Shown here in pieces: positions 60,998-61,447 of a stretch of DNA of 64,000 nucleotides; position 1 is the stretch's first letter; each line of letters opens with the position of its first letter. The notes beneath the pieces are model-generated. The model was not told the DNA's origin. It ran no database searches and saw nothing but the letters and a program-made list of their open reading frames with translations. The translations under genes and the position numbers were made by a program. The stretch lies in the NCBI RefSeq assembly GCF_002854065.1, contig NZ_CP024147.1; one strand, 5' to 3'. This stretch comes from Escherichia coli (lineage in GTDB: Bacteria; Pseudomonadota; Gammaproteobacteria; Enterobacterales; Enterobacteriaceae).

Positions 60998-61447
60998 TTG
61001 CCATGCTGGATATTGATTATCCTCAAGAAAATTAATAATCGTTATAGACATAATTCCGAGGGTAATACACAGAAAAATTTCTCTTCGATGATTTGTGAGC
61101 ATATTCTCATCAGTGCTTATGTTTTCCTCTATGGTGCCGAAGGATTTATTATTTTGTTTGTCGAAACAGAATTATCACACGCTAAAATCATTCTCGAAAA
61201 TCTACGTAACAAAATGGCTGGTTTGCGTATCCAAGCCTTAGTCAGTGAAAGGTTTTCGGTCACGGACAATATTGGCGTCGACGAATATGATTTTTATCCT
61301 GACTATAACCTATTGATAGAAAGGGAGGGCGTTTTATTACGCCAAAAGTCAGGATCGAAACCGGATAGACGTCTTTCTGCTACTGATGACAAACTGCTGA
61401 TTTTTCGTCATTGTCACGCGAAACCAGTAGATCCGAACCAAGTATGA
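60998..61447 (+). CDS. Degenerate GGDEF-like domain fragment (uncertain)
   Basis: ORF contains LYGAEGFIILF in place of the RYGGEEF active-site region plus a GGDEF-like C-terminal pattern (GVDEYD...LLIEREGVLLRQKSG); N-terminal half of the domain absent. Confidence 0.3.
   Translation: MPCWILIILKKINNRYRHNSEGNTQKNFSSMICEHILISAYVFLYGAEGFIILFVETELSHAKIILENLRNKMAGLRIQALVSERFSVTDNIGVDEYDFYPDYNLLIEREGVLLRQKSGSKPDRRLSATDDKLLIFRHCHAKPVDPNQV

What the first reader, a model, noticed from the sequence alone, without database searches (positions are those of the whole stretch)
60998..61447. Degenerate GGDEF-like fragment
The ORF carries GAEGF where GG(D/E)EF would be and preserves a GGDEF-like C-terminal pattern, but it lacks the N-terminal half of the domain and has no obvious RBS. 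It is probably a remnant of a diguanylate cyclase-type gene truncated by the IS66 insertion, or a degenerate c-di-GMP-binding module.
Basis: inference. Interest (0 to 1): 0.25.

Follow-up and report, generated by a model that had tools for sequence, protein, structure and literature searches.

The report
Dead fragment of a DosC-like cyclase gene
The ORF is the decayed tail end of a horizontally acquired oxygen-sensor-type diguanylate cyclase gene in an E. coli genomic island: an ordinary pseudogene, not a working c-di-GMP protein.

Summary
The ORF 60998-61447 and its GAEGF motif (61133-61147) are real, and the GGDEF ancestry is certain. Window 60894-61400 is 87% identical in DNA to the last 169 codons of an intact 467-aa DosC-like globin-coupled diguanylate cyclase (Protoglobin + DosC_2nd + GGDEF) carried on E. 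coli plasmids and islands.

The N-terminal half of the GGDEF domain is not missing. It lies just upstream (60895-61020) in another frame, cut off by a TAA nonsense codon (60916-60918) and a +1 insertion (~61020-61022). A 5-bp deletion (61325/61326) also derails the C-terminus. What is missing is the 298-aa globin and middle-domain part, which is absent from the window and from all 5,426 complete E. coli genomes.

IS66 did not truncate the gene. It sits 466 bp away, has intact inverted repeats and an 8-bp target duplication, and lies inside an IS21 remnant.

Sixteen of 43 family-invariant residues are substituted, including the GGEEF motif, the RxxD I-site and residues shown experimentally to be essential in DosC. 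Substitutions on this lineage are 37 non-synonymous to 7 synonymous (neutral), against 1:8 on the intact lineage. The neighbouring GntR, ADH and MFS genes of the same scrambled module remain constrained.

Verdict: ordinary pseudogene, low interest.

The parts
60894..61400 (+). Pseudogene: the 3' 507 bp (equivalent to codons 299-467 plus the stop) of a DosC-like globin-coupled diguanylate cyclase gene. At the DNA level it holds the whole GGDEF domain, spread over three reading frames.
   Evidence: 87% nt identity to L002:6001-6511. tblastn hits in three frames at 60895-61020, 60995-61324 and 61329-61394. The repaired translation scores 83 bits against Pfam GGDEF over positions 4-161 of 161.
60916..60918 (+). 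Premature stop: CAA to TAA in the conserved D-x-LT-Q-LLNRR segment
61020..61022 (+). +1 nt insertion (frameshift) in the codons for DIDYFK. GAT TAC TTC AAG became GATTATCCTCAAG.
61106..61117 (+). Former RxxD inhibitory (I-) site. The intact relative reads RSSD; this copy reads LISA.
   Evidence: I-site definition from PMC5549716
61133..61147 (+). Degenerate active-site motif GAEGF. The closest relatives read GGEEF and K-12 DosC reads GGDEF.
   Evidence: G375A and E377A abolish DosC function in vivo (PMC5549716).
61325..61326 (+). Site of a 5-bp deletion. This second frameshift removes the conserved KAD-x-ALY segment from the ORF's frame.
61398..61400 (+). Ancestral TGA stop codon of the cyclase gene, now in a frame that no ORF uses
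60998..61447 (+). About 9 codons are out of frame, about 100 are in the ancestral frame, and about 40 are out-of-frame read-through past the ancestral stop.
61088..61447 (+). The same frame as PGAP annotates it in RefSeq genomes: WP_001361993.1, 119 aa, named 'hypothetical protein' or 'nucleotidyl cyclase domain-containing protein'
   Evidence: Pfam GGDEF scores only 16.8 bits.
60767..60893 (.). 127 bp of unassigned DNA abutting the 5' breakpoint of the pseudogene. It matches neither the cyclase gene nor IS21 elements, and in E. coli it occurs only at this locus.
60424..60766 (-). Internal fragment of an IS21-family istA gene (aa ~167-280). The remnant continues at 57753-57917, on the other side of IS66.
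57904..60428 (-). IS66-family element (tnpA, tnpB, frameshifted tnpC) with 26-nt inverted repeats. It is flanked by the 8-bp target duplication CATTCAAC at 57896-57903 and 60429-60436.
61495..62166 (+). Intact FadR/GntR-family regulator (223 aa) with a GGGAGG Shine-Dalgarno sequence. It is the downstream partner of the cyclase gene in the ancestral module.
   Evidence: Pfam GntR + FCD. 92% aa identity to the partner in the intact module. omega 0.23.
53407..54432 (+). Zn-dependent alcohol dehydrogenase gene of the same ancestral module, now inverted relative to the regulator gene and 6.5 kb away
   Evidence: L002:7292-9781 matches window 54488-51987 at 93.7%. omega 0.09.
52146..53435 (+). MFS transporter gene of the same ancestral module
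   Evidence: omega 0.04.
62187..62640 (.). Start of the IS debris (IS4-family fragment, IS66 tnpC fragment) that ends module homology 20 bp after the regulator's stop codon

Best explanation
Window 60894-61400 is a long-dead pseudogene. It is the 3' third of a horizontally acquired DosC-type (globin-coupled, O2-sensor-type) diguanylate cyclase gene.

The ancestral gene belonged to a mobile module: LysE, DosC-like DGC, GntR regulator, Zn-ADH, MFS transporter. That module still exists intact, flanked by IS1, on E. coli plasmids and islands.

In the lineage of this window the module was broken up inside an IS-rich genomic island.
- The first 298 codons (globin and middle domains) and the lysE gene were lost.
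- The ADH-MFS half was inverted away from the regulator gene.
- The retained GGDEF-domain DNA then drifted neutrally. It acquired a nonsense codon, a +1 insertion, a 5-bp deletion and about 38 amino-acid replacements. These destroy the GGEEF active site, the RxxD I-site and several substrate- or metal-contacting residues.

The 149-codon ORF is an accidental open stretch across the middle of this wreck. It most likely makes no functional protein, neither synthesises nor binds c-di-GMP, and survives only because it is linked to the still-constrained regulator gene downstream.

Shown here: homology, the lesions, the neutral substitution pattern, the IS66 target duplication, the module rearrangement. 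Inferred: the order of events, the lack of expression, the lack of binding.
For: 1. Homology.
- Three-frame tblastn to the intact 467-aa relative covers its aa 299-466 (E 2e-39 and 5e-17).
- DNA identity is 87% over 504 bp.
- The intact relative has Protoglobin + DosC_2nd + GGDEF domains. It is 36% identical over its full length to K-12 DosC and 72-73% identical to chromosomal Citrobacter DosC-like proteins.

2. Lesions: TAA at 60916-60918, a +1 insertion at ~61020-61022, and a 5-bp deletion at 61325/61326.

3. Residue decay.
- 16 of 43 positions invariant in 16 intact family members are replaced.
- Six of the replacements fall at equivalents of DosC F337, D342, D350, L353, G375 and E377. Alanine mutants at each of these abolish in-vivo function (PMC5549716).
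- The whole middle domain, which that paper also finds essential, is absent.

4. Neutral evolution.
- Polarised with Citrobacter as outgroup, amino-acid changes are 38 on the window branch against 1 on the intact branch (Tajima chi-square 35, p 3e-9).
- Nucleotide changes are 37 N: 7 S on the window branch and 1 N: 8 S on the intact branch (Fisher p 6e-5).
- 37:7 does not differ from the neutral expectation (p 0.46).
- Pairwise omega is 0.66 for the remnant, against 0.23 (GntR), 0.09 (ADH) and 0.04 (MFS), at similar dS of 0.17-0.23.

5. The missing 5' part is not in the window. It is not in any E. coli genome with this allele either: its 888 bp match only 42 records, all of the intact type at >=95%.

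6. Dispensability. Strain KP63 has an extra IS1 inside the ORF, and PGAP there labels the upstream piece 'diguanylate cyclase; frameshifted; internal stop; incomplete'.

7. There is no ribosome-binding site at either candidate start. Promoter-like matches are at chance level, 7 found against 5.3 expected.
Against: - The ORF is open for 149 codons and is >=99% conserved in about 157 complete genomes. All of these share the same flanking IS mosaic, so this reflects recent common descent rather than selection.
- PGAP calls it a protein (WP_001361993.1).
- No expression data could be consulted, so transcription (for example read-through towards the regulator gene) and translation are not excluded.
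Confidence: 0.93

Rival explanations
1. The ORF encodes a functional, catalytically inactive GGDEF-derived protein that binds c-di-GMP or GTP, or that partners with other cyclases.
For: - Degenerate GGDEF proteins with receptor roles exist (general knowledge).
- The ORF is open, conserved in ~157 genomes and annotated as a CDS.
- PMC5549716 reports that truncated globin-coupled cyclases can still affect motility. Those constructs were the globin and middle domains, not the GGDEF part.
Against: - The I-site RxxD is destroyed: RSSD became LISA.
- The ORF lacks the first ~40 residues of the domain and its last helix, because of the frameshifts.
- Pfam and TIGRFAM scores are below threshold.
- Substitutions are neutral, 37 N: 7 S.
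- There is no RBS.
- The ORF is interrupted by IS1 in strain KP63.
Confidence: 0.03
2. The remnant DNA persists because it carries cis-acting signals (a promoter or 5' leader) for the downstream GntR-family regulator gene. Its function would be as DNA or RNA, not as a protein. This is compatible with its being a pseudogene.
For: - The regulator is intact, has a good Shine-Dalgarno sequence and is under purifying selection, omega 0.23.
- Everything upstream of 60894 is IS debris, so a native promoter would have to lie in 60894-61494.
- The 94-bp intergenic region is conserved with the intact module.
- Two weak sigma-70-like matches lie at 61161-61188 and 61263-61291.
Against: - The promoter scan is at chance level, 7 found against 5.3 +/- 2.3 expected.
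- Outward-reading IS promoters could serve instead.
- The remnant's substitution pattern shows no constrained sub-region that I could detect.
- Simple linkage, with no deletion having happened yet, is sufficient to explain its survival.
Confidence: 0.25
3. The gene was truncated by the IS66 insertion, and its N-terminal part lies beyond the IS66 element.
For: An IS66-family element lies upstream, and the island is full of IS elements.
Against: - IS66 (57904-60428) has both inverted repeats and a perfect 8-bp target duplication.
- It interrupts an IS21 istA remnant, not the cyclase gene.
- It ends 466 bp from the breakpoint.
- No N-terminal cyclase sequence lies beyond it or anywhere in the window, nor in E. 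coli genomes with this allele.
Confidence: 0.02
4. The frameshifts and stop codon are sequencing or assembly errors in an otherwise intact gene.
For: None specific.
Against: - The identical sequence (100%) occurs in dozens of independently sequenced complete genomes from different hosts and countries.
- The 5' two-thirds of the gene is absent.
- Numerous missense changes at invariant residues accompany the indels.
Confidence: 0.01

Closest known systems
Plasmid- and island-borne E. coli DosC-like diguanylate cyclase WP_050010088.1. It is 467 aa and sits in the IS1-flanked module LysE-DGC-GntR-ADH-MFS, for example on IncHI1B plasmid pHI1B-o111 and on the chromosome of strain ECCRA-119.
   Same: - It is the direct homologue: 87% nt identity over the last 504 bp.
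- It has the same downstream GntR gene and intergenic region (90.5% over 1,293 bp).
- It has the same ADH and MFS partners (93.7%).
   Different: - That gene is intact, with GGEEF, RSSD and globin + middle + GGDEF domains, and is under strong purifying selection (1 N : 8 S).
- The window copy lacks codons 1-298, is broken three times and has 38 lineage-specific amino-acid changes.
E. coli K-12 DosC (DgcO/YddV/EcGReg), the chromosomal O2-sensing globin-coupled diguanylate cyclase
   Same: The ancestral gene had the same three-domain architecture. The intact relative is 36% identical to DosC over its full length. Residue equivalences allow the published mutagenesis to be transferred.
   Different: It is a distant xenologue, not an allele of dosC. 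It sits at a different locus with no dosP partner. The window copy retains only the GGDEF-domain DNA, and that DNA is inactivated.
Citrobacter chromosomal LysE-adjacent DosC-like cyclases (e.g. C. freundii, 462 aa)
   Same: They are the closest non-E. coli relatives of the intact gene (72-73% aa identity) and share the upstream LysE neighbour. This is the likely source lineage of the cyclase half of the module.
   Different: No GntR-ADH-MFS genes lie downstream in Citrobacter. That trio is native to Salmonella chromosomes without a cyclase.
Inactivated c-di-GMP turnover genes in natural E. coli isolates (stop codons, frameshifts and deletions in dgc/pde genes)
   Same: It is the same phenomenon: frequent loss of function of GGDEF/EAL genes by nonsense and frameshift mutations (PMC5635171).
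   Different: Those reports concern core K-12-type genes. This one is a remnant of an accessory, horizontally acquired cyclase.
Functional degenerate GGDEF proteins (e.g. E. coli CdgI/YeaI or CsrD, Pseudomonas PelD, Caulobacter PopA; recalled from general knowledge, not tested here)
   Same: They also have a non-canonical motif in place of GG(D/E)EF.
   Different: Those are full-length, conserved proteins, and where they bind c-di-GMP they keep an RxxD I-site. The window ORF is a frame-broken fragment with no I-site that evolves neutrally.

Membership tests
GGDEF domain (Pfam PF00990 / TIGR00254) | Profile match above the curated threshold | tested here: not met
   ORF as it stands: 21.7 bits against a Pfam cut-off of 23.8, and 30.8 against 37.4 for TIGR00254. 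The PGAP version scores 16.8 bits. Only the conceptually repaired three-frame translation passes, at 83 bits over positions 4-161 of 161. Ancestry is met; a present-day domain is not.
Active diguanylate cyclase | GG(D/E)EF active-site motif | tested here: not met
   GAEGF at 61133-61147. G375A and E377A abolish DosC function in vivo (PMC5549716).
Active diguanylate cyclase | Other substrate- or metal-binding residues (DosC D333, F337, K338, N341, D342, D350, L353 equivalents) | tested here: not met
   F to L, D342-equivalent to N, D350-equivalent to G, and L353-equivalent to Q. D333, K338 and N341 equivalents are retained (mapping; mutant data).
Active diguanylate cyclase | Complete domain encoded in one uninterrupted reading frame | tested here: not met
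   One nonsense codon and two frameshifts.
Active diguanylate cyclase | c-di-GMP synthesis from GTP | not testable with these tools
   Needs an enzyme assay.
DosC-type globin-coupled sensor cyclase | Homology of the GGDEF part to DosC-family proteins | tested here: met
   tblastn E 2e-39 to WP_050010088.1. The family alignment gives 72% identity to the nearest member and 31% to K-12 DosC.
DosC-type globin-coupled sensor cyclase | N-terminal protoglobin (heme) domain | tested here: not met
   Absent from the window and from all E. coli genomes carrying this allele.
DosC-type globin-coupled sensor cyclase | DosC middle domain (PF21118), essential for activity | tested here: not met
   Absent. 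Its essentiality is shown in PMC5549716.
Degenerate GGDEF c-di-GMP receptor | RxxD I-site five residues upstream of the motif | tested here: not met
   RSSD became LISA at 61106-61117.
Degenerate GGDEF c-di-GMP receptor | Protein maintained by purifying selection | tested here: not met
   37 N: 7 S on the window branch, indistinguishable from neutral. An IS1-disrupted copy exists in KP63.
Degenerate GGDEF c-di-GMP receptor | Binding of c-di-GMP | not testable with these tools
   Needs a binding assay (DRaCALA or ITC).
Gene truncated by an IS66 insertion | IS66 terminus abutting the breakpoint, with no target duplication across the gene | tested here: not met
   The IS66 end at 60428 is 466 bp from the breakpoint at 60894. 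An 8-bp target duplication is present, and the IS lies inside an IS21 istA remnant.

The most novel reading that the evidence does not exclude
The open 119-149-codon stretch is translated into a GGDEF-derived polypeptide with a new, non-enzymatic role, for example interfering with dimerisation of the cell's own DosC or other cyclases. Alternatively, the remnant has been co-opted as the promoter or leader of the GntR-family regulator that controls the relocated ADH-MFS genes.
Probability: 0.04. Interest if true: 0.3.

Novelty: already known. Interest (0 to 1): 0.07.

Why it matters
It matters little in itself. It is one more example of accessory c-di-GMP genes decaying in IS-rich E. coli islands.

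It is useful mainly as an annotation correction.
- The RefSeq CDS WP_001361993.1 ('nucleotidyl cyclase domain-containing protein' or 'hypothetical protein') should be a pseudogene feature spanning 60894-61400.
- Counts of GGDEF proteins per strain should not include it.

The more interesting by-product is the intact relative. It is a mobile, IS1-flanked DosC-like putative O2-sensing cyclase module on conjugative E. coli plasmids of poultry and human origin. It could add oxygen-dependent c-di-GMP input to its hosts, and I could not find it described in the literature searched.

Tried and rejected
- Searched the window for the missing N-terminal 298 aa and for lysE with tblastn at E<=10. Only noise came back.
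- Searched all complete E. coli genomes for a diverged copy of the 5' 888 bp. Only the intact-type allele was found, in 42 records.
- Looked for a closer intact allele through the linked regulator protein in the 5.8-billion-protein collection. Only two allele groups exist, the window type (97-100%) and the plasmid type (92-93%). The 97% variant sits in the same decayed locus.
- Tried to assign the 127 bp at 60767-60893 to an IS end. There is no match to IS21 elements or to anything else in E. coli or in the window, so the event that truncated the gene stays unidentified.
- Ran a promoter and terminator scan of 60430-62300. Results were at chance level.
- Tried to read Povolotsky & Hengge 2016, the E. 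coli GGDEF/EAL pangenome paper, to see whether the intact gene has a dgc name. The paper is not held. A 'dgcY' search returned unrelated organisms.
- Did not run structure prediction. With three frame breaks and 16 invariant residues lost, a model would add nothing.

Full report
**What is at the coordinates**

The window is E. coli chromosome. The stretch 60400-62300 is 100% identical to many complete genomes. A 149-codon TTG-initiated ORF lies at 60998-61447, and it reads GAEGF at 61133-61147.

On its own the ORF hits the GGDEF profile only weakly:
- Pfam: E 1.9e-4, 21.7 bits against a gathering score of 23.8, profile positions 43-145 of 161.
- TIGR00254: 30.8 bits against a cut-off of 37.4.

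RefSeq genomes annotate the same frame from the ATG at 61088 as WP_001361993.1. The product name is 'hypothetical protein' or 'nucleotidyl cyclase domain-containing protein'. Neither candidate start has a Shine-Dalgarno sequence, whereas the next gene has GGGAGG before its ATG.

**The parent gene**

About 49 E. coli records (chromosomal islands and plasmids) and 33 PLSDB plasmids carry an intact 467-aa gene, WP_050010088.1. It is 87% identical in DNA to window 60894-61400. Its properties:
- Domains are Protoglobin + DosC_2nd + GGDEF, with GGDEF scoring 156.7 bits.
- It is 36% identical over its full length to K-12 DosC.
- It is 72-73% identical to chromosomal Citrobacter DosC-like proteins, which share its upstream LysE neighbour.

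In E. coli the gene sits in an IS1-flanked module: LysE, cyclase, GntR regulator, Zn-ADH, MFS transporter, truncated EAL. One carrier is an IncHI1B plasmid. The GntR-ADH-MFS trio on its own is native to Salmonella chromosomes. The module is therefore a chimera of two source regions.

**Anatomy of the window copy**

tblastn with the intact protein finds its residues 299-466 in three different frames:

| Window coordinates | Residues of intact protein | aa identity |
|---|---|---|
| 60895-61020 | 299-340 | 88% |
| 60995-61324 | 330-441 | 65% |
| 61329-61394 | 445-466 | 68% |

The DNA alignment pinpoints the lesions:
- CAA to TAA at 60916-60918, in LTQLLNRR.
- A +1 insertion at ~61020-61022, in DIDYFK.
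- A 5-bp deletion between 61325 and 61326, which removes KAD-x-ALY from the frame.
- The ancestral TGA stop is still visible at 61398-61400.

With the lesions repaired, the translation covers the whole profile (positions 4-161 of 161, 83 bits, E 2.5e-23).

What is missing is everything upstream of codon 299, namely the globin and middle domains. These residues are not found anywhere in the 64-kb window. The corresponding 888 bp match only 42 E. coli records, all of the intact type at >=95% identity. None of the ~157 genomes with the window-type remnant has it.

**Decay**

I aligned the repaired translation with 16 intact family members. Of 43 invariant positions, 16 are replaced in the window copy. 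Among the losses:
- GGEEF became GAEGF.
- The RxxD I-site RSSD became LISA.
- YGH became YRH.
- GD became EG.

Mapped onto K-12 DosC, the replacements hit the equivalents of F337, D342, D350, L353, G375 and E377. Alanine mutants at each of these lose in-vivo function. The I-site residues R365 and D368, and also R372, are replaced too. The middle domain that the same study found essential is absent (PMC5549716).

Substitution counts polarised with Citrobacter as outgroup:

| Measure | Window branch | Intact branch | Test |
|---|---|---|---|
| Amino-acid changes | 38 | 1 | Tajima chi-square 35, p 3e-9 |
| Nucleotide changes (N: S) | 37: 7 | 1: 8 | Fisher p 6e-5 |

The 37:7 ratio does not differ from the neutral expectation (p 0.46).

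Pairwise Nei-Gojobori values against the intact module:

| Gene | omega | dS |
|---|---|---|
| GGDEF remnant | 0.66 | 0.19 |
| GntR regulator | 0.23 | 0.17 |
| Zn-ADH | 0.09 | 0.20 |
| MFS transporter | 0.04 | 0.23 |

All four genes diverged at the same time, and only the cyclase remnant lost constraint. In strain KP63 a further IS1 sits inside the ORF (about window 61060-61070). There PGAP labels the upstream piece 'diguanylate cyclase; frameshifted; internal stop; incomplete'.

**Surroundings and how the gene was truncated**

The IS66-family element spans 57904-60428 and has 26-nt inverted repeats. It is flanked by a perfect 8-bp target duplication, CATTCAAC, at 57896-57903 and 60429-60436. 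The DNA on its two sides is one IS21-family istA remnant: aa 167-280 at 60740-60424 and aa 272-336 at 57917-57753. IS66 therefore hopped into pre-existing IS21 debris and did not truncate the cyclase gene.

Between the IS21 fragment and the breakpoint lie 127 bp (60767-60893) that match nothing else. The truncating event cannot be identified.

The rest of the module is in the window but rearranged:
- L002:7292-9781 (ADH and MFS) equals window 54488-51987, inverted, at 93.7% identity.
- The break falls exactly between the regulator gene and the shared terminator hairpin.
- Homology on the regulator side stops at 62186, where IS4 and IS66 fragments begin.

The whole mosaic (IS21 fragment, remnant, regulator, IS4 fragment) is inherited as a unit in ~157 genomes at >=99% identity. 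Conservation of the ORF therefore reflects recent shared ancestry, not selection.

**Mechanism and verdict**

The best explanation (confidence ~0.93) is a non-functional pseudogene fragment. It cannot make c-di-GMP, because it has no intact A-site, no activating domains and a broken frame. It is not a credible c-di-GMP receptor, because it has no I-site and no complete fold.

It probably persists through linkage to the constrained regulator gene. It may also carry that gene's promoter, but this is speculative and the promoter scan is at chance level.

This is an ordinary, already-annotated kind of feature, and interest is low.

Noticed in passing
L002:4354-9622; L003; L013 (E. coli plasmids and islands, not the window): An intact IS1-flanked mobile module: LysE, DosC-like globin-coupled diguanylate cyclase (467 aa, GGEEF and RSSD intact), GntR, Zn-ADH, MFS and a truncated EAL phosphodiesterase. 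It occurs on IncHI1B and other E. coli and Shigella plasmids and on some chromosomes, mostly from poultry and humans. It looks like a chimera of a Citrobacter-type LysE-DosC pair and a Salmonella-type GntR-ADH-MFS trio. I found no description of it in the papers searched.
   Followed up: partly
window 43270-49094 (-): A complete Shango anti-phage defence system. PADLOC scores: SngA 6.8e-103, SngB 3.2e-187, SngC 1.4e-276. It lies next to an HsdR-N-domain gene in the same island.
   Followed up: partly
window 51220-51987: An IS1 copy upstream of the MFS gene that is absent from the otherwise collinear strain AMSCJX02. The 9-bp overlap at the junction is taken as its target duplication. A second IS1 lies at ~23180-23951.
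   Followed up: partly
window 57896-60436: An IS66-family element with a frameshifted tnpC, 26-nt inverted repeats and an 8-bp target duplication (CATTCAAC). It is nested inside an IS21-family istA remnant.
   Followed up: yes
window 54433-54488 and 62167-62186: The ancestral module was split exactly between the regulator's 3' end and the bidirectional terminator hairpin (ACGCGTAGTG-AAT-ACACTACGCGT). The hairpin stayed with the ADH gene. The 3' part of the cyclase gene and the regulator gene are now inverted relative to ADH-MFS.
   Followed up: partly
window 60767-60893: 127 bp of orphan sequence between the IS21 fragment and the pseudogene breakpoint. It has no match in E. coli genomes outside this locus and none elsewhere in the window. 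Its origin is unknown.
   Followed up: partly
L004:3292-4095 (strain KP63): An additional IS1 insertion inside the remnant ORF in one clinical isolate. This shows that the ORF can be disrupted further in nature.
   Followed up: partly
L001 and L006 flanks (csc genes, dsdX/dsdA, CP4-44-like yeeU/DUF987/JAB/antirestriction/DUF932 genes, autotransporter): The remnant lies in a large IS-rich island. In related genomes the island is next to the sucrose (csc) genes and the dsdXA locus. The order of the flanking blocks differs between strains 3036 and AMSCJX02, which suggests large inversions.
   Followed up: no
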